Of a stretch of 64,000 bases of DNA, positions 10,590 to 35,944 are shown piece after piece. The stretch lies in NCBI GenBank assembly GCA_041690215.1, contig JAWLHQ010000002.1, positions 154,189 through 218,188 on the forward strand. The letters run 5' to 3'. Numbering within the stretch: position 1 is the stretch's first letter; every line of letters starts with the position of its first letter. A program made the translations under genes and the position numbers. This DNA is from Rhodothermales bacterium (lineage in GTDB: Bacteria > Bacteroidota > Rhodothermia > Rhodothermales > DASSAV01). The notes beneath the pieces were generated by a model. That model was given only the letters and a program-made list of their open reading frames with translations, was not told the DNA's origin and did no database searches.

Positions 10590-12651
10590 CTTCCAATACC
10601 AATAGGTGCGATTAAGGCGTGCGCGAGCTGGAACACGTCGAAACCGATGCTGCGGAAATTTCAATACCAATAGGTGCGATTAAGGCCCAAACTCAATCAC
10701 CTGCGGTGCATAACCGGTGTAGGTATTTCAATACCAATAGGTGCGATTAAGGCCTGTGCGTGCCGCCGGCGGTGTCTGGCTATCGTTCCCATTTCAATAC
10801 CAATAGGTGCGATTAAGGCTTCGAAGGTGACGTCGTGCGGATCGGAGAATCTCAATTTCAATACCAATAGGTGCGATTAAGGCTGTGTCATGAATGTCGC
10901 AACAAGTATCGGCATCTTTCATTTCAATACCAATAGGTGCGATTAAGGCATTTGACCGGCCCGAGTTCCAGCGTCTCCTCGCTCATTTCAATACCAATAG
11001 GTGCGATTAAGGCAGGTAGCCGTTGCCGACGTCCGTATGATTGAACTCATTTCAATACCAATAGGTGCGATTAAGGCGAGCTGATCGCGCAGGAGGCCGA
11101 GCACGACCGTCTCAATTTCAATACCAATAGGTGCGATTAAGGCTAGCCCATAAGCGTGCTGCTGATACGGGGCACGACTAATTTCAATACCAATAGGTGC
11201 GATTAAGGCCGGAGAGAACCACGCGACGGGATAGCTGTCCATCGCATTTCAATACCAATAGGTGCGATTAAGGCTTCGTGGCGACCTGATCCTCAATGTG
11301 GGTGTAGACTATTTCAATACCAATAGGTGCGATTAAGGCTAGAACTGACCGAGGAGCAGTTAGCCGAGCTGGAGTATTTCAATACCAATAGGTGCGATTA
11401 AGGCGCGCCTGCGTGCGGCCGCCGATGGCTCTCCGGGCAAGTTATTTCAATACCAATAGGTGCGATTAAGGCGGCTTACGGGCCTAGAGGGTGAGCGTTA
11501 GCGGCGAAATTTCAATACCAATAGGTGCGATTAAGGCAATGGGATCGCGATAGTGGGGGCCAAAGGACCTTCTCATTTCAATACCAATAGGTGCGATTAA
11601 GGCTACCGCCGGTTACGCATACGCGTATGAGGAGGCCAAGATTTCAATACCAATAGGTGCGATTAAGGCGAACGGATTCGTTAATCTGCGAACCAGTACG
11701 TTCGAATTTCAATACCAATAGGTGCGATTAAGGCGAACGCATCATTATCAAACCAAAATCCGTAATCCGCATTTCAATACCAATAGGTGCGATTAAGGCT
11801 CCAGCGCAGCGTATGACGCTCGTAGCATACGGAGAATTTCAATACCAATAGGTGCGATTAAGGCACCCGGCCTGCTCCGCTAACTTTAGATGCTTTACCA
11901 ATTTCAATACCAATAGGTGCGATTAAGGCGTACGAATCGAGCGCTTGAGATCGCCGCTTTGCTCATTTCAATACCAATAGGTGCGATTAAGGCGGTTTCT
12001 CTGGACGTGTGCACGTCCACCCGGCCTCAATTTCAATACCAATAGGTGCGATTAAGGCGGTAGGATCTAACGACTCCTGTGCAGCATGCCCTGAAAATTT
12101 CAATACCAATAGGTGCGATTAAGGCAGAGTTCGAGCTTGCGCCCCTCAAGGAGAGGGTAGGATTTCAATACCAATAGGTGCGATTAAGGCCCGGAGGTGC
12201 CGATGGTCGCGCTCTGGAGCTGCGGAGATTTCAATACCAATAGGTGCGATTAAGGCGGGGCATTAGTCTACGCTATAAGCCTTCGCTTTCCTTATTTCAA
12301 TACCAATAGGTGCGATTAAGGCTCAAACAGACGGGACACATGATCGAGGTTCACCCCAATTTCAATACCAATAGGTGCGATTAAGGCTCGGAGGGCACCG
12401 CCCCGATCCGTCACGCTTCTGGCTCCATTTCAATACCAATAGGTGCGATTAAGGCTATAGGCTGTATTCTGGATGAGGCGGACGGCGGATAGATTTCAAT
12501 ACCAATAGGTGCGATTAAGGCCCGTTAATAATCCGCGCAATCTCTGCAATCTGTTCGTATTTCAATACCAATAGGTGCGATTAAGGCCTCATTCGCCGCT
12601 TTGATCGTCTTTTGAAGGTCGTATTTCAATACCAATAGGTGCGATTAAGGC
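10590..12651 (-). CRISPR. CRISPR array: 32 repeats (31 identical plus 1 degenerate distal repeat) and 31 unique spacers
   Basis: The 29-nt repeat is ATTTCAATACCAATAGGTGCGATTAAGGC on plus, which is GCCTTAATCGCACCTATTGGTATTGAAAT on minus. Repeat starts: 10590, 10658, 10725, 10791, 10855, 10921, 10985, 11049, 11115, 11181, 11246, 11311, 11376, 11444, 11509, 11575, 11641, 11706, 11771, 11836, 11901, 11965, 12030, 12097, 12162, 12228, 12294, 12359, 12427, 12493, 12559, 12623. Spacers are 35-39 nt. The repeat at 10590 has 2 mismatches (CTTC instead of ATTT). Minus orientation is inferred from the ATTGAAAT 3-prime end, the degenerate repeat at the far end, and the cas genes adjoining the 12651 end. 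Confidence 0.97.
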
Positions 12652-12889
12652 CCCTCCCAGATCTTGTGCGGGAATGGCTCTGGTGGGGGTAAAAATGGGG
12701 GTGGGTGTTCATGGGGCAGGTCGGGCGTGTCGTCGGGTGGCGGTAGTGTCAGAATGCCGGGGGGACGACGATGCGTGCTAAGATACGCAGAAACAGGTGT
12801 CTGTGCGAGCGGCTGTTGCTTTTCGGGCGGTCTGGACGTTCGTACAAGGGGATGCAGGCGTGAGGACGACGACGAAACGGCCTGAATGG
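12652..12889 (-). promoter_or_regulatory. putative CRISPR leader
   Basis: 238-bp non-coding stretch between the cas2 stop (12890) and the first repeat (12651). It contains a degenerate copy of the CCATTYCGTTACA-like motif, read on minus as AGCCATTCCCGCACAAG at 12663-12679, 11-27 nt upstream of the first repeat. It is G-rich on plus rather than AT-rich. Confidence 0.5.
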
Positions 12890-13153
12890 CTATAAAAAGC
12901 GGCTTCGTTCGCCGTGTTCTTCGCCCAGGACGACGCGCTCTACGTACCGCTCGTCACGTAGTTCGTAGAAGATCACGCCGTCTCCTTCCTTCATCAGCTT
13001 GCCGGCGTGTAGCTGTAGTTCCTGAAACTGTGCCCGGGTCATTTCTCCTTCGAAAACGGAGTTCTGTACCCAGGTCAGGTAGCGACGGAAGAGCTTGAGC
13101 ATTCTGGCTACTCGTTTCACGTTGACGTCGTAGACGGCGATGTAGTAGGGCAC
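12890..13153 (-). CDS. cas2: CRISPR-associated endoribonuclease Cas2
   Basis: 87 aa. MPYYIAVYDV...RV.K.....L.WVQNSVFEG is the classic Cas2 beta1 Asp plus ferredoxin-fold pattern. Adjacent to cas1 and the array. Confidence 0.9.
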   Translation of the reverse strand: MPYYIAVYDVNVKRVARMLKLFRRYLTWVQNSVFEGEMTRAQFQELQLHAGKLMKEGDGVIFYELRDERYVERVVLGEEHGERSRFL

Positions 13154-13205
13154 GGCTGGATCGGGGTCGGATGGTGGAGCGGGGTCAGGTGGGCGGGCTG
13201 CTTCG

Positions 13206-14282
13206 TTACCACCACATGTGGAAGCCGGTGTAGGGATCGGCTTCGGGGTCGAAGAGGTGGCGGATGAGGCGGTAGCACTCCAGGCGGATGAGCCGTTCGT
13301 AGCTTACGTTGCGCCCGAGCTCGCGGTGCCGGACGGTCTTCCGGAGGCGCTCGTCCCAGTGTTCGACGAAGACGCGGCGCCCCCGGTCGTTGAGGTAGAT
13401 GCCGCCGAGCCGCTCTTCGAAGTGCCGGGGTGTGATGGCGCCGGTCTTGATCAGGCGGAAGATGGCGCGGTCTACCAGGAGCGGCTTGAAGACTTCGCTC
13501 ACGTCGAGGGCGAGGCTGAAGCGGCGGTCACCCGGCTCATGGAGGTAGGAGATCGTGGGATCGAGGGCGGTCCGGTAGATCTGGCGGAGCACGGTGCTGT
13601 AGGCGAGCGCGTTGCCGAAGGAGATGAGGGCGTTGATCTCGTTCGAGGGTGGGCGGCGTTCCCGGCGTGTAAAGGGAAAGTCGCGGCCGGCCGGACCGAG
13701 GATGGCGGGCCAGGCGGTGTAGTAGGCTTCGCGGACCCGCCCTTCCACGCCCATCAGTTCGGGTACATCCCCGCAATGGTAGAGGCCTTCGCTTTCGACG
13801 GAGGCACAAATGGCCCGGACTTCTGCGGCAGGCGGCCCTTCCAGGCGGTTCGCGTAGTATTTGAGGACGCGGAGGATGTTGTAGACGGCGGCTTCTACGA
13901 AGGCGCGGGCCAGCCGGAGCCGGGCGTCGGGATCGAGGTAGTGCCGGACCTGCTGCACTTTGAGGCGGCCGGAGTGGAGATAGTCGCGCGGGTAGAGGGT
14001 AGCGGTGAAGTTGCCGTAGTAGTCAAAGCAGTGGACCGGGATGGCGTGTTGTGCGAGGAAGGTGATGAGCTTGGTGTTGACGTCCACCTCACCGAAGAGG
14101 TAGAGGGCTTCGACCTGCTCGACGGGGAAGGCGGTCTTTTCGCCCGTCGGGGGGCTCGACGGTGCTCCGGTATCCTCGGGGGTGTCGTCTGGCACGCGAT
14201 TCTCCCCTGCCCGCTCCAGGTAGAGGGTGTTGTGCCGCCGCCGCAGTCGTCCATTGCTGAAGAGGTAGAAAGGGCGTTTCAT
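13206..14282 (-). CDS. cas1: CRISPR-associated integrase Cas1
   Basis: 358 aa. N-terminal YLFSNGRLRRRHNTLYLE pattern. C-terminal alpha-helical domain with LHEPGDRRFSLALDVSEVFKPLLVDR (catalytic H/D/E region). Confidence 0.9.
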   Translation of the reverse strand: MKRPFYLFSNGRLRRRHNTLYLERAGENRVPDDTPEDTGAPSSPPTGEKTAFPVEQVEALYLFGEVDVNTKLITFLAQHAIPVHCFDYYGNFTATLYPRDYLHSGRLKVQQVRHYLDPDARLRLARAFVEAAVYNILRVLKYYANRLEGPPAAEVRAICASVESEGLYHCGDVPELMGVEGRVREAYYTAWPAILGPAGRDFPFTRRERRPPSNEINALISFGNALAYSTVLRQIYRTALDPTISYLHEPGDRRFSLALDVSEVFKPLLVDRAIFRLIKTGAITPRHFEERLGGIYLNDRGRRVFVEHWDERLRKTVRHRELGRNVSYERLIRLECYRLIRHLFDPEADPYTGFHMWW

Positions 14283-14382
14283 ATCTGGCGATCGGCTTTC
14301 AGCGGTCAGCTATCGGAAGGGAGAGTTAAACGTTGAAGGTCAGAAACAAAAGGCTCGCGGACGAAAGCCGGCGGCTGACCGC

Positions 14383-14937
14383 TCATCCGTAGCAGAGTTC
14401 TTCGAAGGCACAGCTAGCGCAGAAGCGGCGGCGGGTGAGGCGTGGGGGCGGGTGCTCCCGGACGGCAAGGTGCCGGAGTGCAGCGACGATCTCGGCCAGG
14501 CGTGCTTCGTCGGGCCCGGTGAGGGTGACGGTTTCGGTGCGGCGGAGCCTGGGGTAGTCGATGCAGCCGGTGAAGGGGGTTCCGTCGGAGCGGGTGACGC
14601 CGCACCGCTTGAGGAGCCAGAGGTAGAAGCGGAGTTGCCAGCGGTGGGCGTCTTCGACGGCGCGGCTTTTCTTGGTTTCGTGGAGGACGCCGTCGCGGAG
14701 GTCCGCCCAGTCGATCCGCCCGACCAACAGGGTGCCGTCGGGGGCTTCGGCTTCGAGGTCGAGCTGTTTGCGGCTGCGGGTGTAGCTCGCTTCGTCGATG
14801 AGGCGGCCCAGGGTGACGGCCTCGCTCTCCTGCTCCATCCACAAGCCCCGCATGGAGAGCCAGGCTTTCCTCGGGCAGACGGCGTAGTACCCGACGAGCA
14901 TCCCGCCGACGCGGATGGCCGTGCCTGTGTCGGACAT
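14383..14937 (-). CDS. cas4: CRISPR-associated exonuclease Cas4 (RecB-like, Fe-S)
   Basis: 184 aa. N-terminal CPRKAWL Cys plus C-terminal CASCAFEELC (four-Cys cluster). IDWADL ... LHETKKS matches the D..E.K nuclease motif. Confidence 0.85.
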   Translation of the reverse strand: MSDTGTAIRVGGMLVGYYAVCPRKAWLSMRGLWMEQESEAVTLGRLIDEASYTRSRKQLDLEAEAPDGTLLVGRIDWADLRDGVLHETKKSRAVEDAHRWQLRFYLWLLKRCGVTRSDGTPFTGCIDYPRLRRTETVTLTGPDEARLAEIVAALRHLAVREHPPPRLTRRRFCASCAFEELCYG

Positions 14938-14951
14938 GAGAAAGAACGAAT

Positions 14952-14972
14952 TGTAACGCGGGTGTAACGAAA
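14952..14972 (-). promoter_or_regulatory. tandem (C/T)GTTACA motif upstream of cas4 (candidate promoter or operator)
   Basis: Read on minus as TTTCGTTACACCCGCGTTACA: two CGTTACA half-sites 11 bp apart, 15-35 nt upstream of the cas4 ATG (14937). Identical over 21 nt to 40184-40204 on plus. Flanked by an 8-bp AT-rich inverted repeat (AATTGTAA at 14949-14956, TTACAATT at 14974-14981). Confidence 0.4.
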
Positions 14973-15118
14973 CTTACAATTTTGACCACGTGCCTCCGGA
15001 CCCGGTCACGAGGAGGTCAGGCCAGCCGCTCCGATGGCACACTTTGCACAGAAAACGTATGTGCAGGGCGCACAGGGCAGCGCGTATCGTGCGGAGGACC
15101 GAGTCCAGGAGGCGGAAG

Positions 15119-15135
15119 ATTGTAACGAAATGGAC
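15119..15135 (-). promoter_or_regulatory. single copy of the GTCCATTTCGTTACAAT motif in the cas7-cas4 gap
   Basis: Plus strand reads ATTGTAACGAAATGGAC. It shares the 15-nt TGTAACGAAATGGAC with the reverse complement of 40179-40193. It sits at the GC-composition break. Confidence 0.35.
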
Positions 15136-15214
15136 GATCTCCGACTATCGTGTATGGGGCTTGATGCGCGATTCGCTGTGTAATGGTCATTGTGCTGGGT
15201 CTATGGTGCGGTGA

Positions 15215-15231
15215 ATTGTAACGGAATGGAC
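15215..15231 (-). promoter_or_regulatory. single copy of the GTCCATTCCGTTACAAT motif, 18 nt downstream of the cas7 stop
   Basis: Plus strand reads ATTGTAACGGAATGGAC, one mismatch relative to the copy at 15119-15135. Confidence 0.35.
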
Positions 15232-15248
15232 AGGTTGCATAGGCTCTG

Positions 15249-16322
15249 CTATGCAGCAATCAACGTCTCCAACCCTTCTCCGTGAGCAAGTTCAGTGAGT
15301 AATTCTACTGCGGCTGCTATCCCCTGCACCTTGTGACATACTATAGCATTTCGATTGCCGTTCATGCGATTGGCTGTTCTCACCAGTTGCTCCAACGTGT
15401 CCAGGTAATTGTCCTTCATTGCACTGACGGTCGGAGCGGGGCAATTCGTGCTGGATGTCACAATCGCGCCTTCAAAATCCATGATATGTGGAAACTGCTG
15501 GCTACTGTTAGCGCCGGGCTGGTTCATCAGCGTGTAACTAAGCGCGTCGATGACTGCTTGCTTGCGCTTCCGACGTTCCCCTTCGTCGGTGACCGCGTAT
15601 TCATTCTTTGCGTCATCAAAGCCGAGCCCAGCCAAATCGATGGCAGCGACCATTGCAAAGGCAGCACTGGTAGCTGGACGAGTGAAGATGTTCTGCCCCT
15701 CTCCCGAAGCCGTCTCACGCGCCTGAATGCCGGTACGCGAGGAAACGTATTTTGCATGGAAAAAATGCTCGGTCATACTCTGGCGCGGCACACCTGTCAT
15801 GAATCCAACCTGCACCCTACTCGTGCGCGCCACAGCCACAGCAGCGCTGAATACACTCTTCTCCCCTTCTGCCTTCTGTGGACTTACCTCTGTAATGAGA
15901 AGTCCATGTGCATCCGTAACAACGCACTCGGAAGCCACCAGACTGTATAGGGCTTGTTCTAACTTATCCCGTTGAGCCCCTTTCACAGTACCACTCCAAC
16001 TCGCCACTTCCTGAACACGCTCCGTGACCCACTGGTAATCAGCTAATTCGCTCTTGATACGGTTTGGGTTTGGGTTGCGGCGGTCAGCATTCCGGCTGAG
16101 CGGAAGCCCGCGCTCCTGTGCGATAGCGCTTAGGTGTTTCGCGTGCCAATGTTTGAGCATGTCACCAGAAATGACGGGCACGCTGTAGAGCTTGCCATCA
16201 AGAACAATCGTTGCCGTGCGAGGCTGAAGTGCATTGCCTTCAGACCCCTCATTATTGAGTGAAGCAAGATTGAGCGTGAGCCGCCCTACAAGGGTAAGAT
16301 GATTGATCTGGTCCAGGTTCAT
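15249..16322 (-). CDS. cas7: Cas7 backbone subunit (DevR/Cst2-like)
   Basis: Starts at MNLDQINHLTLVGRLTLNLASLNNEGSEGN, followed by VISGDMLKHWHAKHL, both typical of the DevR/Csa2/Cst2 Cas7 families. The ORF track extends to 16451 and would overlap cas8. ATG at 16322 lies 25 nt after the cas8 stop. Confidence 0.85.
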   Translation of the reverse strand: MNLDQINHLTLVGRLTLNLASLNNEGSEGNALQPRTATIVLDGKLYSVPVISGDMLKHWHAKHLSAIAQERGLPLSRNADRRNPNPNRIKSELADYQWVTERVQEVASWSGTVKGAQRDKLEQALYSLVASECVVTDAHGLLITEVSPQKAEGEKSVFSAAVAVARTSRVQVGFMTGVPRQSMTEHFFHAKYVSSRTGIQARETASGEGQNIFTRPATSAAFAMVAAIDLAGLGFDDAKNEYAVTDEGERRKRKQAVIDALSYTLMNQPGANSSQQFPHIMDFEGAIVTSSTNCPAPTVSAMKDNYLDTLEQLVRTANRMNGNRNAIVCHKVQGIAAAVELLTELAHGEGLETLIAA

Positions 16323-16347
16323 GGCTTTTATATTTTGGAGTGAATAG

Positions 16348-17991
16348 TTAAGCAGCATCGGCAATGCTGTCCTCGAACCCACTTTCTTTGTCTTGCGGGA
16401 CACTCTCATTCTCCCGGCGACAAAGCGCAAATGCGAGAACCAGCTGTGCAATCAGACGAGGGTTCTGCGTTTGCTCCGCCAATTCAACAAGCCGCGTTAT
16501 TGACGGCTCAAAAGGCATGGCCAAGTATTTCAATGTGTCGCGATTCCCTTTAGCTGATGCCAGTTTACTGGTACCGCGCTCAATAGCAATTTCCACCAGC
16601 GCCTGAACGAGATCTTCCGTACTCTGTACTTCTCGTAACCGTCGCATCATCTGGTAGTTCGGCTGACTGTCTGCTTGTTCGGGTGGATGATAAACGGCAC
16701 TGTATGTCTCTTGCCGGACGAGATTGACAAATGCACGCACATCCTCCTGCCGAAATGCGGCAAGCAGGTCGGAATATCTGTATTCCATGATCTCCTCAAA
16801 GAAGGTTTGATAGAGTGGGTAAAAAGGTCTTTCACTAGAAAACCCTACATCAGCGATGTACCCTAAGTAGCCTTGGGCAGCGGAAGCAGGGTCGCTGTGC
16901 TCAAACCCACGAACCAGCAAACGCACAGCCTCCCGGTTTATAGAGGGTGGACTACCTACTTTGGGCGTCGTTGCTTTCTTCCAACGATAGAGTAGCATAT
17001 GTAACCGTTCCGCGGACATCTCACTATAACGATGCTGCGGCACGGCAAACTGCCATGAACCTGCAGGAGAAGGAGCGGCACCGAGTTCAATAAAGCTCGC
17101 GCCGGCAACGCACTCCAAAGCCTTAGGCCTGAGATGATGGCGGAGTAATAATTTCAGGTAATTCAGGTAATTGTCGTAAGGAAAGAAGAACCCATTACTT
17201 ATGATCCGCCTCCGGTTATCATCAACTAAGCGTTCGAGATAGGACAACCGCATATCTCGAGGCACTGGCAGTGCAAACCCATCTGGAATTTGCCCCGTTG
17301 ATGCTTTCAACAACCCTGCTACTGCAAGGCAAGTTAGGCGGCTCATTGAACGAGACAGGGATTTGGGTAGGCTGCTATTGCCTATACTAAAAGAATTGCT
17401 GGCATTTCCACCCTTGGATCCCTGAGGCAATACAATGGAATTGAATGTTATACTCTGCTCCTGAAAAGTCCCGTCAATTAATTCCAGTCCTCGGTGACGG
17501 CAGGCATACACACAAAGGTTTACCCAATCAGGCTTGCCCAGCTTATTAATGGTACCGTAGAGTTTGCGATCAGGCCTGGGAATTTCGATTGTCTTATTGC
17601 CGATAGATACTGTTACGGTAGTGTCTTCCGACGTATCCACCGCTGCCCCTTCCGTACTTATGAGATTCTTATCATCCCATCCAGGTGCTTTTCTCGTTGT
17701 ACCTTCTTTTAGCCCGCTTTTCCACGATGCAGGGATGGTGTATTTCAGCCAGTGCCTCTGGGGGCGGTCCCGCAGTTGTTTTCGATAGGTGATAGCGAAG
17801 CCCGCCGGAGTGCGCCTAATAAGCGGCGTTTGTGGCGTATCGAAGTAGGTATCGGCGAGCGCAGCAAAGCCGATGGCAGCTAGCGCATCGAAGTAGCCGT
17901 GATCAAACGGCGGCAACGTTTCTACTATTTCCTCTCCTCCCTCTGAGGCAGGTGTGGAAAAGCCGAGCGGAAGTTGTGCGGATTCCGACAT
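16348..17991 (-). CDS. cas8: Cas8-like large subunit (family not assignable by eye); possible internal Cas11 start at 16788
   Basis: 547 aa. Occupies the position between cas5 and cas7 that holds the large subunit in type I operons. Only a 3-nt gap separates it from cas5. The C-terminal roughly 146 aa look helix-rich. No motif was recognised. Confidence 0.55.
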   Translation of the reverse strand: MSESAQLPLGFSTPASEGGEEIVETLPPFDHGYFDALAAIGFAALADTYFDTPQTPLIRRTPAGFAITYRKQLRDRPQRHWLKYTIPASWKSGLKEGTTRKAPGWDDKNLISTEGAAVDTSEDTTVTVSIGNKTIEIPRPDRKLYGTINKLGKPDWVNLCVYACRHRGLELIDGTFQEQSITFNSIVLPQGSKGGNASNSFSIGNSSLPKSLSRSMSRLTCLAVAGLLKASTGQIPDGFALPVPRDMRLSYLERLVDDNRRRIISNGFFFPYDNYLNYLKLLLRHHLRPKALECVAGASFIELGAAPSPAGSWQFAVPQHRYSEMSAERLHMLLYRWKKATTPKVGSPPSINREAVRLLVRGFEHSDPASAAQGYLGYIADVGFSSERPFYPLYQTFFEEIMEYRYSDLLAAFRQEDVRAFVNLVRQETYSAVYHPPEQADSQPNYQMMRRLREVQSTEDLVQALVEIAIERGTSKLASAKGNRDTLKYLAMPFEPSITRLVELAEQTQNPRLIAQLVLAFALCRRENESVPQDKESGFEDSIADAA

Positions 17992-17994
17992 AAT

Positions 17995-18621
17995 TCAACT
18001 GTTAAATATCAGGTGCAGGTGATTGGCTCCGCCACCCGCCATATGCATTGCCACCCGAAATGCCTTGTCCTCGCGAGGCTTTGCCGCATTACCAGTGAAG
18101 TTGGAAACCTTATCCCAAGTCGCATTGCCTTTCATATCGCTACCCTGGAGCAGTACTCCATTTTCGGGAGGATCTGCCTGAGCCACTTCCAACAGAGCGA
18201 AAAAGCTTCCCTGCTTTCCAAAGCAGTTCACGCAGGGAAGAGCAGGCTGCAACACGTCGAGTGCAGCATCTGGGAAGTACAAATCCACACCCCCGTCGAA
18301 GTAAACGAACTCACGGAAAACAACGGTTGAGGAGAGATAACCAGGCGTCAACTCACCGACGGTATCCGCTCGTGGCGGCTCCCAGTGCTTAACGAGATGA
18401 GTATTCACCACGCCTTCGCCCCACGGGTGTGGCCGGAGATCCAGCGTACGTACATACTTGGTGAACTCTGCCGGATCCAGTCCGGCCCGGATTGCCCCCA
18501 CGATCAGGGCCACCTTTGCCGCGTATGGGGTAGGACACGGATACGTAGCAGCTAGTTTGGTTGTAGCCTGCTCGCGTCTATGGCTGAAGGGCGTAGTGCT
18601 GATGTAGCGGGCTCGGATCAT
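17995..18621 (-). CDS. cas5: Cas5-family subunit
   Basis: 208 aa. The N-terminal ..TTPFSHRREQATTKLAATYPCPTPYAAKVALIVGAIRAG matches the Cas5 pattern (F..p....t.t.P.PtPsa..G.l.a..G). FGKQGSFFAL is the Gly-rich loop region. Its start overlaps the cas3 stop by 4 nt. Confidence 0.6.
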   Translation of the reverse strand: MIRARYISTTPFSHRREQATTKLAATYPCPTPYAAKVALIVGAIRAGLDPAEFTKYVRTLDLRPHPWGEGVVNTHLVKHWEPPRADTVGELTPGYLSSTVVFREFVYFDGGVDLYFPDAALDVLQPALPCVNCFGKQGSFFALLEVAQADPPENGVLLQGSDMKGNATWDKVSNFTGNAAKPREDKAFRVAMHMAGGGANHLHLIFNS

Positions 18622-20948
18622 ACGAAATGATGGTTTGAAGCAGGTGTGCTTTCATGTTGCTCTACTTGCGAGATTTCGGCGGTCGCCAATTGATCGCATC
18701 GGCGGAGGATGTAGGAGAGCATGAAGTAGGTGGTGAGATCATCGGTCGCCTCGAGCCGGTCTTGTGTAGTACGAATTTGATATACCTGTCCCCGCTCGGT
18801 GTGGTCGATAGCGGGAGTGAGCGCGGCAGCACCCCAGCGATACTGCACCCACGGCTCCTTCTGACTTATTGCATCCAGATAAGCGAGGTGACCGAGGTCG
18901 TAAGCATGGTGGCGATCAAGCGAAAGTTGCTGGCTGTACCCGTGATGATCGGAGATGGCCCAATAAATGGCCTTGAACAGAGCAACCCGCTTGCACTCAT
19001 CCTGTATGGACCCGCAGAATCTTTGCAAATACTCCCGCACGGCCCATGCACTGACCCATGCGTGGGAAGGAGGTGGCTTCTGCCGGCAATAGGGGCTTTG
19101 CTCGTCACTTTCCGAGTGCGCGATGGGAGCAGGACCAGATGGCCGAGCCTCCGGGGGGAATGCTTCTGGTGGCACCCCTTCAGGTGGAACTCCATGTGCG
19201 GCCTGCCACTGGCGGTCGAGCTTACCCAGGTCATGTGCCCAGATCACAAAATCCACCAGCATCTCCGCTGCTGCCATCCCATCTCCGCCGTACTCGCGGC
19301 TCAGGTGCTGACCCAACTTGTCAATCATCCAGCGCACCACCGACTTCTTCTTCCAGAGCAGGCGAATATGTTGCTCGTAAGATTCGAGTGTGTATTTATA
19401 GGCTGTTCGGGTTCTCTCCTGCTCATCCAGAAAAGCCTCCTCTCCACCCGTGCCGTCGAAGTTCAATCCATAATCGCCACTGTAGCCTATGTGCTCCGGG
19501 TCGAGTAATGCGAAATCTGCCTGACGGACGTTCTCAGTCGATACGTACTCTTTTCGTTCAGAATCATACCGGAAAAACGTGGCGGGGAGTTGGCTGTACA
19601 CCCCATTACCCATGAACTTCCCGCGTGAGATGCTGATGTACTTACGCCGCCTCTTCGGATCATCTCCAACAGCAACGTTGATGCTATTGATGTCACGGAT
19701 GAACGTATCATAGAGACTATAATCTTGTGACACACGCGCATCGTCCACTACTCGCTGGCTGTAGTTCTCGCGAAAGCGCTGCCCAATTAACCTGTCGCGT
19801 TCAGCCGTGAGATTTACGATCTCCTCCTCCTTTTTCGGCGTCAGTAAGCATCCGTTACCAAGGAAGGCATCTAGCGCAGTGATTTCTGCCTCACGATTTC
19901 GATAGGGCATTGTGCTTTTCGCCGGGTGCCAATAGATAACACCTTTCTCGCCTACGTAACGAGCACACCGCCCGGCCCGCTGAATGAAGGCATCCGGTGG
20001 ACATGCATCCGTATGCAGTACATCGCAGCTAATGTCGATTCCGGCCTCTACAACTTGCGTGGCTACAAGAATCGCTGAAGTCTTACTGTTCTCACCAAAC
20101 ACATTGCGAACGGCTTTTTCGATGCGCTGCCGGTCGTCAGATAGCAATTCGGAATGGAGCAGGTAAACTTCTTTTGTCGGGTATTTTTTGCGGAGTTCTC
20201 GGGCAGTCTGTTTTGCCCAGTCGATTTGATTGCGGATTATCAGTGTGCGTTGTCCTATCTCCAAAGCATCCGGGGAGTCGAGCCCATCTCCGCGACCTAT
20301 CTCTTTGAGGTTCTCGAACGGGCGATTGCCCCGGATTACTGCCACCCCGTTCTGCTGGCCTATCGGGCTTCGCTTTAATTCCTCCTCAAGAAATGTGATC
20401 ATTTCATCACTGAGCGTCGCGGTGAGGATGATACCATTCTGGGTGCTTCGCTGAAGTGCAAGTAGCGCGATGGCAAGGCTCCGCTCAGGATCAAACAGAT
20501 GGAACTCATCAAAGATGAGGTGACTGGCATCAATCACCGCTGGAAGCACGTTTCCCTGCCGCAGGCTTACGCCAATAGGAATACCGAGGAATGCGCTGAG
20601 CGTCTGGTCGAGTGTAGTAAATACAAGATCAATGGGGCGCTGTATATCTTCCCCTTTATCCAATAACTCATGCTCACGTCTATTACCATGGTGAGCAGCA
20701 CAGTGAATCGGCAGCCAATCCTCGACACTTTCCACGAGCGAATCCACCAGCACGCGAAGCGGAAGAGAATAAATCGCGTGTCCCCCAGCTAGCGCGGCAG
20801 TTACAGCAAATGTTTTACCCCACCCCGTAGGCGCATGTAGGATAATGTGCTTTCCTGCGCGAAAAGCATCGAAGACAGCCCGTTGCTGGTCCCGCTCCCT
20901 GAATCCAGCGTTCCGGAGGGCTTCATCGAATGTCTGGAAATAAGCCAT
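18618..20948 (-). CDS. cas3: Cas3 helicase-nuclease with an N-terminal SF2 helicase and a C-terminal HD domain
   Basis: Helicase motifs: APTGWGKT (Walker A), FDEFH (DEAH-type box), TATL, QRAGRCAR (motif VI). HD motifs in the last roughly 250 aa: EQH, WAHDLGKLD, ISDHHG, RRCDQLAT. Confidence 0.9.
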   Translation of the reverse strand: MAYFQTFDEALRNAGFRERDQQRAVFDAFRAGKHIILHAPTGWGKTFAVTAALAGGHAIYSLPLRVLVDSLVESVEDWLPIHCAAHHGNRREHELLDKGEDIQRPIDLVFTTLDQTLSAFLGIPIGVSLRQGNVLPAVIDASHLIFDEFHLFDPERSLAIALLALQRSTQNGIILTATLSDEMITFLEEELKRSPIGQQNGVAVIRGNRPFENLKEIGRGDGLDSPDALEIGQRTLIIRNQIDWAKQTARELRKKYPTKEVYLLHSELLSDDRQRIEKAVRNVFGENSKTSAILVATQVVEAGIDISCDVLHTDACPPDAFIQRAGRCARYVGEKGVIYWHPAKSTMPYRNREAEITALDAFLGNGCLLTPKKEEEIVNLTAERDRLIGQRFRENYSQRVVDDARVSQDYSLYDTFIRDINSINVAVGDDPKRRRKYISISRGKFMGNGVYSQLPATFFRYDSERKEYVSTENVRQADFALLDPEHIGYSGDYGLNFDGTGGEEAFLDEQERTRTAYKYTLESYEQHIRLLWKKKSVVRWMIDKLGQHLSREYGGDGMAAAEMLVDFVIWAHDLGKLDRQWQAAHGVPPEGVPPEAFPPEARPSGPAPIAHSESDEQSPYCRQKPPPSHAWVSAWAVREYLQRFCGSIQDECKRVALFKAIYWAISDHHGYSQQLSLDRHHAYDLGHLAYLDAISQKEPWVQYRWGAAALTPAIDHTERGQVYQIRTTQDRLEATDDLTTYFMLSYILRRCDQLATAEISQVEQHESTPASNHHFV

Positions 20949-20960
20949 CGTATTGGAATC

Positions 20961-21671
20961 CTAGTGCAAGAATCCAAAACCACTTCCAGTGAGGTGACCG
21001 GCCCCTACTTCCCATGCAAATTGCACGGCCTCGGGCGTGCCAGCTACTATAACCGGACAAAGGTTGCCCTTAAATCGAATGCCCTTGATTTCCACAACCT
21101 TTGTCTTGGCTCTGCTATAGCTCCGATCAAAACCCATCAGGGTGTGAAGGTGAGCGCCGGAATAACCCGCTACCTGGAGCTTATTGCGTAGTGTTTCAGT
21201 GAGGTACCCATCCGCCTCCGGATCTCTAAAGGTTAGGTGTTTGCGGGTACTATCCTCTTCCACACTTGACCTGACCAGCACCGGACTACCGACCTCAAAG
21301 CGATAGATGCTTCCAAAAGCAGGCGTGGGCTGTTCCTCCACACGATAGATTCGCATCCCAAACGCAATGTGTGGGAGTTGCTCGGCATTCTGGCGCACAC
21401 GCTCTGCCAAGTTCCGATCGTGGATGCTGATGCTCCATTCCGCACCATTCGGAAAATGCAAACCATCACTCGCGCTTTTACTTCCTCGACCACGAAGCCA
21501 GCCAATTGAATAGCAGCTGATTTTGTCATGTACGCCATTCCACCCTGCGAGGCGATGAAAAGCGCCCGTGAGGTGGTGTGGATACGTATATGGGACTAGT
21601 TGCTTATTCGGCGTGAGGTAAAACTTCAGGCGCATATCAATGCGGGGTGAGTCCTGAGATGTAACAGCCAT
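20961..21671 (-). CDS. cas6: Cas6 pre-crRNA endoribonuclease
   Basis: 236 aa. C-terminal glycine-rich loop GAGHLTGSGFGFLH typical of Cas6. RAMP-like duplicated fold is suggested. First gene of the effector operon. An alternative start is M13 at 21635 (MRLKFYL...), because the 21660-21680 motif overlaps the first ATG. Confidence 0.75.
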   Translation of the reverse strand: MAVTSQDSPRIDMRLKFYLTPNKQLVPYTYPHHLTGAFHRLAGWNGVHDKISCYSIGWLRGRGSKSASDGLHFPNGAEWSISIHDRNLAERVRQNAEQLPHIAFGMRIYRVEEQPTPAFGSIYRFEVGSPVLVRSSVEEDSTRKHLTFRDPEADGYLTETLRNKLQVAGYSGAHLHTLMGFDRSYSRAKTKVVEIKGIRFKGNLCPVIVAGTPEAVQFAWEVGAGHLTGSGFGFLH

Positions 21672-21680
21672 GTAACGGAC
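21660..21680 (-). promoter_or_regulatory. tandem (C/T)GTTACA motif at the 5-prime end of cas6 (candidate promoter or operator)
   Basis: Read on minus as GTCCGTTACATGGCTGTTACA: half-sites CGTTACA and TGTTACA 11 bp apart, the same architecture as 14952-14972 and 40184-40204. Lies 25-45 nt upstream of the alternative cas6 ATG at 21635. Confidence 0.4.
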
Positions 21681-21752
21681 TTTCTATTAAAAAGTACAAG
21701 CGGCGGATTTCAATCGCAAGCGGGCACCCGGGATGATCGAAACCGGGGTATG

Positions 21753-22790
21753 TCATTCTCGCGTCATATCCCTCCGCCCTCTTTTCTCCGCATACAACGC
21801 GGCCATCCGCCGCGCCTCGGAGGCGACGCGGTGGCGGAGGACGGGCGGGGAGATCACTTCGGCTTCCGCCCCGTAGGAAAGGACCCATCGGGCCAGATCC
21901 TGCAGGCCTGCGGCCTGGAGCCGCACGTCGAGCGAGCCGTCGGGACGCTCGACCATCACCTGCGAGGGGTGCCAGCGCTCCTCCTTGATCCACCGGGCCT
22001 GGTAAGGGCTGAACCGGACGTGGACGGCGTAGGTGCGCTCGCCCCGATGCATCCCGAAGGCGGGGCCGAGGTAGGCCTCCAGGTCGAAGTCGGGCGGGAT
22101 GGAGAAGTATGCGCCGGTGGGCGTCAGGGCGCGGATGCGGTCTATGCGGAAGTCGCGCATGGCTTTCCGCAGGCGGCAGAATGCGATGGCATACCAGCGC
22201 CCCTGGTACGAGAGGAGCGTGTAGGGCTCGATCTCGCGCTCGGTCTCCTTGCCGGTGCTGTTCGAGGTGTAGCGGATGCGGACGACCTGCTGGTTGCGTA
22301 CGGCGGCTTCGAGGGCTTCCAGCCGGGCCAGGGGTACGGGAGGACGGGGGCCGGTTTCGAAGCGGATCGACCGGGAGAGCACCTCGGGTTCGACGCGCAC
22401 GGTTTCGGGGAGGTGTTCTGCGATCCGCTGGACGACCCGCGCCAGGTGCGGCCCGTGCACGCCGTCGCCCAGCGTTTCGAGCGCGTGGTGCGCCACCAGG
22501 AAGGCGGCGAACTCGGTTCGGGAGAGGGCCAGAAGGGGGAGGTTTTCGAACGGCCCTTCCAGCACGTAGGTCCGCTTCTTCCGATCGAACTCGATCGGCA
22601 CGCCGATCTGCCGGAGGTATTCCAGATCGTTGAAGACCGTGCGCCGCGATACCTCGAAGGCCCGCGCTACGTCGCGCGTCGTCAACGGGCGCTCGGAGCG
22701 CAGCCACTCGAGCAGCCGCTGAAAGCGCCGCACCTGCGGCCCGGTCGGCATCACGCGCCCGGCGCGTTTCGGCACTCCTTCCATATGCAA
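21753..22790 (-). CDS. WYL-domain transcriptional regulator (HTH-WYL-WCX)
   Basis: N-terminal HTH (LTTRDVARAFEVSRRTVFNDLEYLRQIG). Central WYL region (YQGRWYAIAFCRLRKAMRDFRIDRI). C-terminal extension. Directly upstream of cas6 on the same strand. The start may be M14 at 22751. Confidence 0.85.
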   Translation of the reverse strand: MHMEGVPKRAGRVMPTGPQVRRFQRLLEWLRSERPLTTRDVARAFEVSRRTVFNDLEYLRQIGVPIEFDRKKRTYVLEGPFENLPLLALSRTEFAAFLVAHHALETLGDGVHGPHLARVVQRIAEHLPETVRVEPEVLSRSIRFETGPRPPVPLARLEALEAAVRNQQVVRIRYTSNSTGKETEREIEPYTLLSYQGRWYAIAFCRLRKAMRDFRIDRIRALTPTGAYFSIPPDFDLEAYLGPAFGMHRGERTYAVHVRFSPYQARWIKEERWHPSQVMVERPDGSLDVRLQAAGLQDLARWVLSYGAEAEVISPPVLRHRVASEARRMAALYAEKRGRRDMTRE

Positions 22791-22985
22791 TCGTGTCTAG
22801 ATGGTATACAACGGACGCTCGTTAGCATACATCAGACACACTGCAGTACGATTTCATACCCTCGCGCGGGTTGATTTTTTTGTGCAGACGGAGGTGTGGG
22901 TGTCAGGTTGTGCGGCCTGAATGGCCGGGGTGAATGGGTGATGGCACAGAATGCACGGGTTTGTACGTGAATGGGGTTGGTTGTG

Positions 22986-35878: not shown

Positions 35879-35944
35879 TTTACTGGCCTGAATCTGCGAT
35901 TTACTGGCGTGAATCTGCGATTTACTGGCGTGAATCTGCGATTT
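35879..35944. repeat. 21-bp tandem repeat, 3 copies plus a 3-nt partial
   Basis: TTTACTGGC(C/G)TGAATCTGCGA at 35879-35899, 35900-35920 and 35921-35941. Copy 1 differs from the others at one base. Confidence 0.9.

What the first reader, a model, noticed from the sequence alone, without database searches (positions are those of the whole stretch)
18618..20948. Cas3 with inverted domain order: SF2 helicase first, HD nuclease at the C-terminus
The helicase motifs lie in the first roughly 330 aa: APTGWGKT at residue 38, FDEFH at residue 146, QRAGRCAR at residue 323. The HD-type metal-binding motifs lie in the last roughly 250 aa, about nt 18621-19391: EQH at about residue 525, WAHDLGKLD at about residue 570, ISDHHG at about residue 665, RRCDQLAT at about residue 750.

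Most type I Cas3 proteins (I-B, I-C, I-E) carry the HD domain at the N-terminus. A C-terminal HD is the arrangement described for subtype I-G, whose other genes (a cas5-cas6 fusion, a cas4-cas1 fusion, csx17) are not what is seen here.

The HD domain also carries a Pro-rich insertion, GVPPEGVPPEAFPPEARPSGP.
Basis: partly seen in the sequence, partly recalled or inferred. Interest (0 to 1): 0.55.

Follow-up and report, generated by a model that had tools for sequence, protein, structure and literature searches.

The report
Cas3 with helicase first, nuclease last
This CRISPR locus encodes a genuine Cas3 whose DNA-cutting HD domain follows the helicase instead of preceding it, but the layout belongs to a large, already catalogued bacterial family, so it is ordinary rather than new.

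Summary
ORF 18618-20948 (minus strand, 776 aa) is a Cas3. An SF2 helicase takes up residues ~20-345, a linker/accessory domain ~346-515, and a Cas3-type HD nuclease ~516-776. The HD metal-binding residues are invariant in 32 homologues, and a confident model of the C-terminus matches only stand-alone Cas3'' HD nucleases.

The locus is complete, and it is not subtype I-G. It runs cas6, cas3, cas5, cas8, cas7, cas4, cas1, cas2, then a 32-repeat CRISPR array.

Both halves of the protein find their nearest solved relatives in the two separate polypeptides of archaeal type I-A, Cas3' and Cas3''. The neighbouring 547-aa protein is a divergent member of a large-subunit family that PADLOC files as "Cas8a, I-A". 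The protein therefore looks like an in-frame cas3'-cas3'' fusion.

The same single-ORF layout occurs in all 80 related loci examined, from more than a dozen phyla. An exhaustive search found 749 protein clusters (50% identity) with this HD domain.

I file it as a new member of a known, experimentally unstudied kind. Interest is low to moderate.

The parts
18618..20948 (-). cas3, 776 aa: helicase, then linker/accessory domain, then HD nuclease
   Evidence: Open reading frame. Pfam and NCBIfam Cas3 helicase and Cas3_HD hits. Full-length model with pLDDT 89, pTM 0.87.
20334..20891 (-). RecA1 lobe, residues ~20-205: Walker A APTGWGKT 39-46, DExH box DEFH 147-150, motif III TAT 176-178
   Evidence: Pfam DEAD at 20-182. 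Motif positions. These columns are invariant in alignment A1.
19914..20309 (-). RecA2 lobe, residues ~214-345: motif VI QRAGRCAR 323-330
   Evidence: Pfam Cas3-like_C_2 at 232-330, E 1.6e-28, and Helicase_C. Q323, R324, G326 and R327 are invariant.
19404..19913 (-). Linker plus accessory (CTD-like) domain, residues ~346-515. Together with the RecA lobes it corresponds to a whole stand-alone Cas3' helicase.
   Evidence: The Foldseek alignment to the type I-A Cas3 helicase 8wtk spans 561 columns of a 496-residue target, TMt 0.66. The 'mid' HMM is found in almost all related loci.
18621..19403 (-). Cas3-type HD nuclease domain, residues ~516-776. Predicted metal ligands: H527, H572/D573, H611, H629, H668/H669, D752.
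   Evidence: Pfam PF18019 above its gathering score. Invariant residues. Profile matches to the I-A Cas3'' chains 7tra_Q, 7r2k_Q, 8wth and 3s4l. Domain model with pLDDT 92.4 whose four best PDB folds are all Cas3'' HD.
19131..19193 (-). Pro-rich variable loop (residues 586-606) between HD motif II and H611
   Evidence: Position. Length and sequence vary between homologues, from no insert to about 25 extra residues.
20961..21671 (-). cas6 (I-B-like Cas6 endoribonuclease)
   Evidence: PADLOC Cas6b 1.9e-65. TIGR01877 scores 63 bits against a cut-off of 58.65. Pfam Cas_Cas6_C.
17995..18621 (-). cas5 (208 aa). Its start codon overlaps the cas3 stop codon.
   Evidence: PADLOC Cas5a 6.7e-21. It is conserved at this position in L003, L004, L085 and L086.
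16348..17991 (-). cas8, large subunit (547 aa): a divergent member of the family PADLOC labels Cas8a (I-A)
   Evidence: No direct hit in Pfam, NCBIfam or PADLOC. jackhmmer links it to the ~600-aa proteins between cas3 and cas7 in related loci. hhalign gives 98% probability, E 1.5e-13, over 480 columns. Those relatives hit PDLC01417 Cas8a.
15249..16358 (-). cas7 (DevR/Csa2 type, 369 aa)
   Evidence: Pfam DevR 5.3e-55. TIGR01875 scores 110 bits against a cut-off of 67. The start is taken from the gene called in L001.
14383..14937 (-). cas4 (stand-alone)
   Evidence: Pfam Cas_Cas4 1.2e-38. TIGR00372 above its cut-off.
13206..14282 (-). cas1 (I-B type)
   Evidence: TIGR03641 cas1_HMARI scores 399.5 bits against a cut-off of 304.1.
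12890..13153 (-). cas2
   Evidence: Pfam CRISPR_Cas2 2.4e-19. PADLOC Cas2b 5.8e-30.
10590..12651 (-). CRISPR array: 32 repeats of 29 nt (GCCTTAATCGCACCTATTGGTATTGAAAT on the minus strand) with spacers of about 35-39 nt. The cas-distal repeat is degenerate.
   Evidence: 32 matches against 0 expected by chance. Repeat family and spacing.
12652..12889 (-). Presumed leader between cas2 and the first repeat (inferred from position only)
   Evidence: Sequence read. The degenerate repeat lies at the far end of the array.

Best explanation
The ORF encodes a functional type I CRISPR effector nuclease-helicase (Cas3). It is equivalent to a stand-alone Cas3' helicase (RecA1, RecA2, linker and accessory domain) fused in frame to a stand-alone Cas3'' HD nuclease. 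That is the order in which these two genes lie in archaeal type I-A operons.

The protein belongs to a large, mostly bacterial lineage of I-A-like interference modules. These combine a Cas8a-family large subunit, a Csa2/DevR-type Cas7, a Cas5a-like Cas5 and a fused Cas3. Here the module is joined to an I-B-type adaptation module (Cas4, Cas1b, Cas2) and a Cas6b.

Inferred mechanism:
1. Cas6 cuts the array transcript into crRNAs.
2. Cas8, Cas7 and Cas5 assemble on the crRNA and form an R-loop on a PAM-flanked target.
3. The C-terminal HD two-metal site nicks the displaced strand.
4. The helicase then translocates 3' to 5' using ATP and feeds DNA to the HD site.

In archaeal I-A both halves of Cas3 are integral parts of Cascade. 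I therefore think it more likely than not that this Cas3 is also a pre-bound, allosterically activated subunit, rather than one recruited only after R-loop formation.

Shown here: domain order, conservation of the catalytic residues, the folds, locus composition, and how widespread the layout is. Inferred: the activities, the fusion history and the mode of recruitment.
For: - Domain order and HD identity.
- The helicase profile's best solved relatives are the type I-A Cas3' helicases 8wtk (E 7.7e-51), 7tr8_A (4.4e-46) and 7r2k_A (7.3e-46). The I-E, I-F and I-C Cas3 proteins score only 1e-24 to 1e-11.
- The HD profile's only significant solved relatives are the stand-alone Cas3'' proteins 7tra_Q, 7r2k_Q, 7tr8_Q, 8wth and 3s4l. 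They are also the four best fold matches, with probability 0.97-1.0 and TMt 0.54-0.62.
- 8wtk and 8wth are the separate helicase and HD proteins of a Thermococcus siculi I-A system (PMC11246428).
- The T. tenax I-A module runs csa5, cas7, cas5a, cas3', cas3'', cas8a2, and both Cas3 parts are integral to Cascade (PMC4005679). In the distant related loci the fused cas3 is likewise followed directly by the Cas8a-family gene.
- All 80 related loci carry helicase, middle domain and HD in one ORF.
- In every full-length protein among the 150 best listed hits (of 749 clusters), the HD is the last ~230 residues.
- Best PADLOC matches are Cas3a1 (189.7 bits), Cas5a, and Cas7 models that include I-A Csa2.
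- The locus looks intact: all ORFs are open and 31 of the 32 repeats are identical.
Against: - No experiment exists for any member of this lineage that I could find.
- The NCBIfam cas3_HD score (36 bits) is below its curated cut-off of 43.45.
- The Foldseek E-values for the HD domain are modest, 1e-3 to 0.09.
- One PADLOC profile labelled Cas3g aligns colinearly to residues 32-656. A shared origin with the I-G architecture is therefore not excluded, and I built no tree to test it.
- The window's Cas8 is linked to Cas8a only by iterated and profile-profile comparison.
- Constitutive binding to Cascade is an analogy, not a result.
Confidence: 0.82

Rival explanations
1. The gene is an I-G-type Cas3g that recombined into an otherwise I-B-like locus by module shuffling. 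On this reading the C-terminal HD is inherited from the I-G lineage.
For: I-G is the textbook case of a C-terminal HD, for example the I-U locus described in PMC5944118. The PADLOC Cas3g profile PDLC01770 aligns colinearly to residues 32-656, E 4.5e-40. TIGR02621 gives 128.9 bits.
Against: - TIGR02621 is far below its cut-off of 400 and covers only the helicase, residues 22-357.
- Cas3a1, Cas3b and Cas3e profiles all score higher than Cas3g.
- Both halves are closest to I-A proteins.
- This Cas3 travels with the same Cas8a-family and DevR-type Cas7 genes, and with Cas5 wherever it could be detected, across the related loci, not with Csb1, Csb2 or Cas8u.
Confidence: 0.08
2. The long ORF is an artefact. 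On this reading two adjacent genes, cas3' and cas3'', were joined by a sequencing or assembly frameshift or a lost stop codon in this genome.
For: Split cas3'/cas3'' is the normal I-A state (PMC4005679). One short metagenomic contig (L087) carries an HD-only ORF in front of a Cas8a-like gene.
Against: The identical 776-aa protein is recorded on 8 contigs from independent assemblies. All 80 related loci and the full-length database representatives have the same single ORF. The full-length model packs the domains confidently, pTM 0.87.
Confidence: 0.02
3. The C-terminal HD domain is a degenerate, non-catalytic relic. On this reading the system silences or binds targets without degrading them, or relies on another nuclease.
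For: The NCBIfam cas3_HD score is below its cut-off. The domain carries lineage-specific insertions such as the Pro-rich loop.
Against: Every canonical HD metal ligand is invariant across homologues down to 18-28% identity: H527, H572, D573, H611, H629, H668, H669, D752. The helicase motifs are also intact. The locus keeps a 32-repeat array with a complete adaptation module.
Confidence: 0.06

Closest known systems
Archaeal type I-A Cas3' helicase plus Cas3'' HD nuclease (P. furiosus 7tr8/7tra, T. siculi 8wtk/8wth, M. jannaschii MJ0384 3s4l, T. tenax module)
   Same: These are the nearest solved relatives of both halves, by sequence profile and by fold. The helicase comes before the HD along the DNA. 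The HD-coding segment is followed by a Cas8a-family gene in related loci. The partners are a Csa2/DevR-type Cas7 and a Cas5a-like Cas5.
   Different: Here the two parts are one polypeptide. The host is a bacterium, probably Rhodothermales-like. No separate csa5/cas11 gene is present. The adaptation module and Cas6 are of I-B type. Gene order differs.
Bacterial 'Cas8a / CAS-I-A' loci such as Deinococcus gobiensis plasmid P2 (cas3, cas8a, devR, cas5, cas1, cas2, cas4)
   Same: Same Cas3 layout, helicase-middle-HD, 844 aa annotated in the record (the domain order was shown on the stop-to-stop ORF). Homologous large subunit, Cas7 and Cas5.
   Different: Cas3 shares only ~27% identity. The window's Cas8 is too divergent to hit the Cas8a profile directly. 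In the window's clade cas5 lies between cas3 and cas8 rather than after cas7.
Subtype I-G (formerly I-U) Cas3g
   Same: The helicase is N-terminal and the HD C-terminal. One Cas3g-labelled profile aligns colinearly.
   Different: The TIGR02621 score is far below its cut-off and covers the helicase only. The locus has no Cas8u/GSU0054, Csb1/Csb2, cas5-cas6 fusion or cas4-cas1 fusion.
Canonical I-B, I-C and I-E Cas3 (for example T. fusca 4qqw)
   Same: Same helicase core and same HD chemistry. The T. fusca HD is the fifth fold match to the HD domain model, with probability 0.60.
   Different: Those proteins have the HD at the N-terminus. Sequence similarity is much weaker than to I-A Cas3'.

Membership tests
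Cas3 (type I signature helicase-nuclease) | SF2 DExH helicase core with Walker A, DExH, motif III and motif VI | tested here: met
   TIGR01587 scores 137.8 bits against a cut-off of 102.45. Pfam DEAD and Cas3-like_C_2 also hit. The motifs are invariant.
Cas3 (type I signature helicase-nuclease) | Cas3-type HD nuclease domain with conserved metal ligands | tested here: met
   PF18019 scores 34.3 bits against a gathering score of 23.1. H/HD/H/H/HH/D residues are invariant. The best folds are Cas3'' HD nucleases. TIGR01596 is below its cut-off.
Cas3 (type I signature helicase-nuclease) | Encoded within a cas operon next to a CRISPR array | tested here: met
   cas6, cas3, cas5, cas8, cas7, cas4, cas1, cas2, followed by a 32-repeat array.
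Cas3 (type I signature helicase-nuclease) | ATP-dependent 3'-5' unwinding and metal-dependent ssDNA cleavage | not testable with these tools
   Requires biochemistry.
Subtype I-G Cas3g | HD domain C-terminal to the helicase | tested here: met
Subtype I-G Cas3g | Score at or above the curated cut-off of the Cas3g model TIGR02621 | tested here: not met
   128.9 bits against a cut-off of 400. Only residues 22-357 align.
Subtype I-G Cas3g | I-G partner genes: Cas8u2/GSU0054, Csb1/Cas7u, a cas5-cas6 fusion (Csb2) and a cas4-cas1 fusion | tested here: not met
   cas6, cas5, cas4 and cas1 are separate genes. The Cas4g/Cas1g model is far below its cut-off. No Csb or Cas8u hits were found.
Subtype I-A | Cas8a-family large subunit | tested here: inconclusive
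   The window's protein has no direct profile hit. hhalign gives 98% probability to the family whose members hit PADLOC 'Cas8a; CAS-I-A'.
Subtype I-A | Cas3 split into separate cas3' and cas3'' genes | tested here: not met
   It is a single ORF here and in all 80 related loci.
Subtype I-A | Separate small-subunit gene (csa5/cas11a) | tested here: not met
   No such ORF was found in the locus. The 80-aa ORF at 15017-15259 has no hit. In relatives, the C-terminus of Cas8a hits the Cas11a profile instead.
Subtype I-A | Csa2-type Cas7 and Cas5a | tested here: met
   Cas5a 6.7e-21. Cas7a/Csa2 8.5e-37, although the I-A Cas7 model TIGR02583 is below its cut-off, 125 against 212.6.
Subtype I-B | Cas8b-family large subunit | tested here: not met
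   No Cas8b profile in PADLOC, NCBIfam or Pfam matches the 547-aa protein.
Subtype I-B | I-B type adaptation module and Cas6b | tested here: met
   TIGR03641 Cas1b scores 399.5 bits against a cut-off of 304.1. Cas2b, Cas4b and Cas6b are the best PADLOC matches.
Subtype I-B | Cas3 with an N-terminal HD, encoded after cas5 (typical order cas6, cas8b, cas7, cas5, cas3; recalled from memory) | tested here: not met
   The HD is C-terminal and cas3 is the second gene of the operon.

The most novel reading that the evidence does not exclude
The Rhodothermales, Cytophagales, Saprospiraceae and Balneolales clade has a fixed order: cas6, cas3[helicase-HD], cas5, cas8, cas7, cas4, cas1, cas2. Its large subunit escapes every current profile library. 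This clade may be an unrecognised, subtype-level bacterial branch of I-A-like systems. In it, the fused Cas3 would be a constitutive, allosterically gated Cascade subunit, giving a mesophilic single-polypeptide counterpart of the archaeal I-A effector.
Probability: 0.3. Interest if true: 0.45.

Novelty: new member of a known kind. Interest (0 to 1): 0.27.

Why it matters
The result is mostly a correction of expectations. A C-terminal HD on Cas3 is not diagnostic of subtype I-G. It also marks a large bacterial lineage of I-A-like interference modules, and annotation pipelines commonly label those proteins only as "helicase Cas3'", missing the nuclease.

This has practical value for subtype calling. 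The locus mixes I-A-like effector genes with I-B-type adaptation genes, and its Cas8 hits no model.

No member of this lineage seems to have been studied biochemically. A mesophilic, single-chain version of the I-A Cas3'/Cas3'' pair could be a convenient model. It could show how the position of the HD relative to the helicase, and pre-association with Cascade, affect target degradation. No new principle is implied.

Tried and rejected
1. I could not retrieve the 2015 and 2020 CRISPR-Cas classification papers to cite their statements on HD position. Seven full-text searches found no paper describing a C-terminal HD outside I-U/I-G. The I-U case is in PMC5944118. My recollection that the 2015 paper mentions "several subtype I-A systems" is therefore memory only.

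2. Single-sequence searches with the HD region found nothing in PDB sequences (phmmer) or in plasmids (tblastn). Only the profile and the fold search worked.

3. The fold search with the full-length model was dominated by the helicase and said nothing about the HD. I therefore modelled the domain separately.

4. I rejected I-G membership and the frameshift-artefact reading.

5. I looked for stand-alone relatives of this HD to support the fusion scenario. L088 is cut by the contig end. L087 has an HD-only ORF in front of a Cas8a-like gene, but the contig is 1.4 kb, too short to interpret.

7. The promoter and terminator scan upstream of cas6 gave nothing above background.
Full report
**The observation**

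The minus-strand ORF 18618-20948 is open for 776 codons.
- APTGWGKT, 39-46
- FDEFH, 146-150
- QRAGRCAR, 323-330
- EQH, 525-527
- WAHDLGKLD, 570-578
- ISDHHG, 665-670
- RRCDQLAT, 749-756
- the Pro-rich stretch, 586-606

Pfam places DEAD at 20-182 and Helicase_C / Cas3-like_C_2 at 230-331. It places Cas3_HD (PF18019) at 539-683, scoring 34.3 bits against a gathering score of 23.1. NCBIfam gives cas3_core at 35-336, above its cut-off. It gives cas3_HD at 546-756 with 36 bits, just below its cut-off of 43.45. Nothing HD-like precedes the helicase.

**Is the C-terminus a real HD nuclease?**

I aligned the protein with 31 homologues sharing 26-77% identity. The invariant columns include the helicase motifs and also H527, H572, D573, K576, H611, H629, H668, H669 and D752. 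A separate alignment of the C-terminal region alone gives the same set. That is the H / HD / H / H / HH / D pattern of Cas3 HD domains.

The full-length AlphaFold2 model is confident (pLDDT 89, pTM 0.87), but its PDB matches are driven by the helicase. I therefore modelled residues 508-776 alone (pLDDT 92.4). Its four best PDB matches are all stand-alone Cas3'' HD nucleases: 8wth, 7tr8_Q, 3s4l (MJ0384) and 7tra_Q, with probability 0.97-1.0 and TMt 0.54-0.62. The fifth is the HD of T. fusca Cas3. Everything after that is noise. A sequence profile of the domain also finds only those Cas3'' chains in the PDB.

**The locus**

On the minus strand the genes run as follows:

| Gene | Coordinates | Note |
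|---|---|---|
| cas6 | 20961-21671 | I-B-like Cas6 |
| cas3 | 18618-20948 | helicase, then HD |
| cas5 | 17995-18621 | 208 aa, PADLOC Cas5a 6.7e-21; start overlaps the cas3 stop |
| unrecognised | 16348-17991 | 547 aa, no family hit |
| cas7 | 15249-16358 | DevR/Csa2 type |
| cas4 | 14383-14937 | stand-alone |
| cas1 | 13206-14282 | I-B model TIGR03641, 399.5 bits against a cut-off of 304.1 |
| cas2 | 12890-13153 | |

A CRISPR array of 32 repeats of 29 nt follows at 10590-12651. On the minus strand the repeat ends in ATTGAAAT, and only the cas-distal repeat is degenerate.

The locus is complete and is not I-G. It has no fused cas4-cas1 and no Csb or Cas8u genes. The I-G Cas3g model reaches 128.9 bits against a cut-off of 400, and aligns over the helicase only.

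The window is chromosomal. Acetyl-CoA synthetase and HrpB lie nearby. The host is probably Rhodothermales-like, because its acetyl-CoA synthetase is 74% identical to that of Rhodocaloribacter litoris and similar to several Rhodothermales MAGs.

**What the protein is related to**

The profile of the whole family finds type I-A Cas3' helicases as its best solved relatives: 8wtk (7.7e-51), 7tr8_A (4.4e-46) and 7r2k_A (7.3e-46). The Cas3 proteins of I-E, I-F and I-C come far behind, at 1e-24 to 1e-11. The Foldseek alignment to 8wtk covers essentially the whole 496-residue helicase protein. Residues 1 to about 515 are thus equivalent to a complete Cas3', and residues from about 516 to the end are equivalent to a Cas3''.

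8wtk and 8wth are the separate helicase and HD proteins of a Thermococcus siculi I-A system (PMC11246428). In Thermoproteus tenax the I-A module runs csa5, cas7, cas5a, cas3', cas3'', cas8a2 (PMC4005679). An in-frame fusion of two such neighbours gives exactly the helicase-to-HD order seen here.

**The neighbour confirms the affiliation**

In 60-odd related loci, a protein of about 600 aa lies between cas3 and cas7. jackhmmer links the window's 547-aa protein to those proteins. hhalign between the two groups gives 98% probability, E 1.5e-13, over 480 columns.

All ten of those proteins that I scanned hit one PADLOC model, PDLC01417, labelled "Cas8a; CAS-I-A; effector_LS". The Deinococcus gobiensis protein scores 1332 bits over the full model. 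In two of the ten, the C-terminus also hits the Cas11a model.

This system family has therefore already been catalogued as an I-A variant. In the distant loci the fused cas3 is followed directly by cas8a, just as cas3'' is in T. tenax.

**How common is it?**

The first protein search returned 984 relatives. They include annotated proteins from cultured Nibrella, Fibrella, Fodinibius, Schinkia and Desulfothermobacter. Sources usually name them "helicase Cas3'".

A scan of species-representative genomes gave 80 loci. They come from Bacteroidota, Rhodothermales, Chloroflexota, Halanaerobiales, Spirochaetota, Ignavibacteriales, Thermotogaceae, Nitrospira, Armatimonadota, Acidobacteriota, Actinomycetota, Cyanobacteria and Pseudomonadota, plus two archaeal MAGs.

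HMMs for the helicase, middle and HD parts hit a single ORF, in that order, in every locus not cut by a contig end. The one exception is L020, where a frameshift splits the ORF.

An exhaustive search of 1.84 billion representative proteins with the HD profile found 749 clusters at E up to 1e-3 and 146 at E up to 1e-30. In every full-length protein among the 150 best listed, the HD is the last ~230 residues. The layout is old and widespread.

**What is particular to the window's clade**

Relatives with at least 43% Cas3 identity include two Saprospiraceae MAGs, Nibrella viscosa and Fodinibius saliphilus. They share the order cas6, cas3, cas5, cas8, cas7, cas4, cas1, cas2. The distant majority has cas6, cas3, cas8, cas7, cas5, then the adaptation genes. 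The clade's Cas8 has diverged beyond the reach of Pfam, NCBIfam and PADLOC.

The Pro-rich stretch is a variable loop between HD motif II and H611. The closest homologue keeps it. Cytophagales relatives have no insert there, and Saprospiraceae carry a longer, unrelated insert.

**Mechanism**

Shown here:
- an intact SF2 helicase and an intact HD metal site in one chain;
- a complete Cascade gene set, adaptation genes and a long array.

Inferred from established knowledge of type I systems:
- Cas6 makes the crRNAs.
- Cas8, Cas7 and Cas5 form the R-loop.
- The HD nicks the displaced strand.
- The helicase reels DNA 3' to 5' into the nuclease.

In archaeal I-A, both halves of Cas3 are integral to Cascade (PMC4005679). 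I-G Cas3 is described as a stable component too (PMC11096372). I therefore think pre-association is more likely than recruitment in trans, but nothing here tests it.

**Rival explanations**

- An I-G Cas3 shuffled into the locus. This is unlikely. The scores favour I-A, and this Cas3 co-occurs with the same Cas8a-family and Cas7 genes, and with Cas5 where it could be detected, throughout the related loci. One Cas3g-labelled profile does align colinearly, and I built no tree.
- A frameshift artefact. The identical protein on eight contigs and the universal single ORF exclude this.
- A dead HD. The invariant ligands argue against this.

**Novelty and verdict**

From memory only, the 2015 classification already notes a C-terminal HD in I-U and in several I-A systems; I could not retrieve that paper.

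I found no experimental work on any member. I rate the finding as a new member of a known kind, with low to moderate interest. It matters mainly for annotation and subtype calling, and as a possible model for a single-chain Cas3'/Cas3''.

Noticed in passing
window 16348-17991 (-): The 547-aa protein between cas5 and cas7 has no hit in Pfam, NCBIfam or PADLOC. It is nonetheless a divergent member of the Cas8a-labelled large-subunit family (hhalign 98%, E 1.5e-13). In two of the ten relatives scanned, the C-terminus hits a Cas11a small-subunit profile. A small subunit might therefore be made by internal translation.
   Followed up: partly
window 17995-18621 (-); L003, L004, L085, L086 compared with L005-L083: Gene order differs between clades. 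In the window's clade cas5 sits between cas3 and cas8. In the distant majority it follows cas7.
   Followed up: partly
window 21637-22707 (-) and 21750-22874 (+): Two long overlapping ORFs (356 and 374 aa) lie directly upstream of cas6. Neither has a family hit, and it is unclear which, if either, is a gene. In Nibrella viscosa (L085) and on the D. gobiensis plasmid (L083), a WYL-domain regulator occupies the upstream position.
   Followed up: partly
window 12890-21671 compared with the whole window: The cas locus has 55.6% G+C (cas3 alone 53.6%) against 59.3% for the window. The adaptation genes are 65-67% identical to those of a Rhodothermales MAG (L005), whose Cas3 is only 30% identical. 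Both observations suggest module exchange.
   Followed up: no
L087 209-967 and 970-1443: A 1.4-kb metagenomic contig carries an HD-only ORF (252 aa) of this family. Stop codons and an opposite-strand gene precede it, and the N-terminus of a Cas8a-like protein follows it. It may be a split or decayed version of the locus.
   Followed up: partly
L020 9974-12367; L078 and L081 cas3: In L020 the cas3 ORF is broken into 230-aa and 567-aa pieces, probably by a frameshift. In L078 and L081 the helicase match is interrupted by an insert of about 35-40 residues.
   Followed up: no
Plasmid hits H2, H5, H8, H11, H13 (Nostoc, Anabaena, Allocoleopsis, Planktothrix): On cyanobacterial plasmids the related Cas3 is annotated as two adjacent genes, 'DEAD/DEAH box helicase' and 'Cas3''. 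The tblastn match comes in two pieces for four of the five hits (one piece for H11), suggesting a split or interrupted helicase.
   Followed up: no
window 35879-35944: A tandem repeat of a 21-nt unit (TTTACTGGCGTGAATCTGCGA), 3.1 copies, 97% matches.
   Followed up: no
L084 (C. perfringens plasmid pJFP838A) 8923-10638: A 571-aa 'Cas3'' gives a helicase match only, with no middle-domain or HD match. A DevR-family gene lies nearby, but no cas1 or cas2 lies within 9 kb. It may be a reduced or orphan interference module.
   Followed up: no
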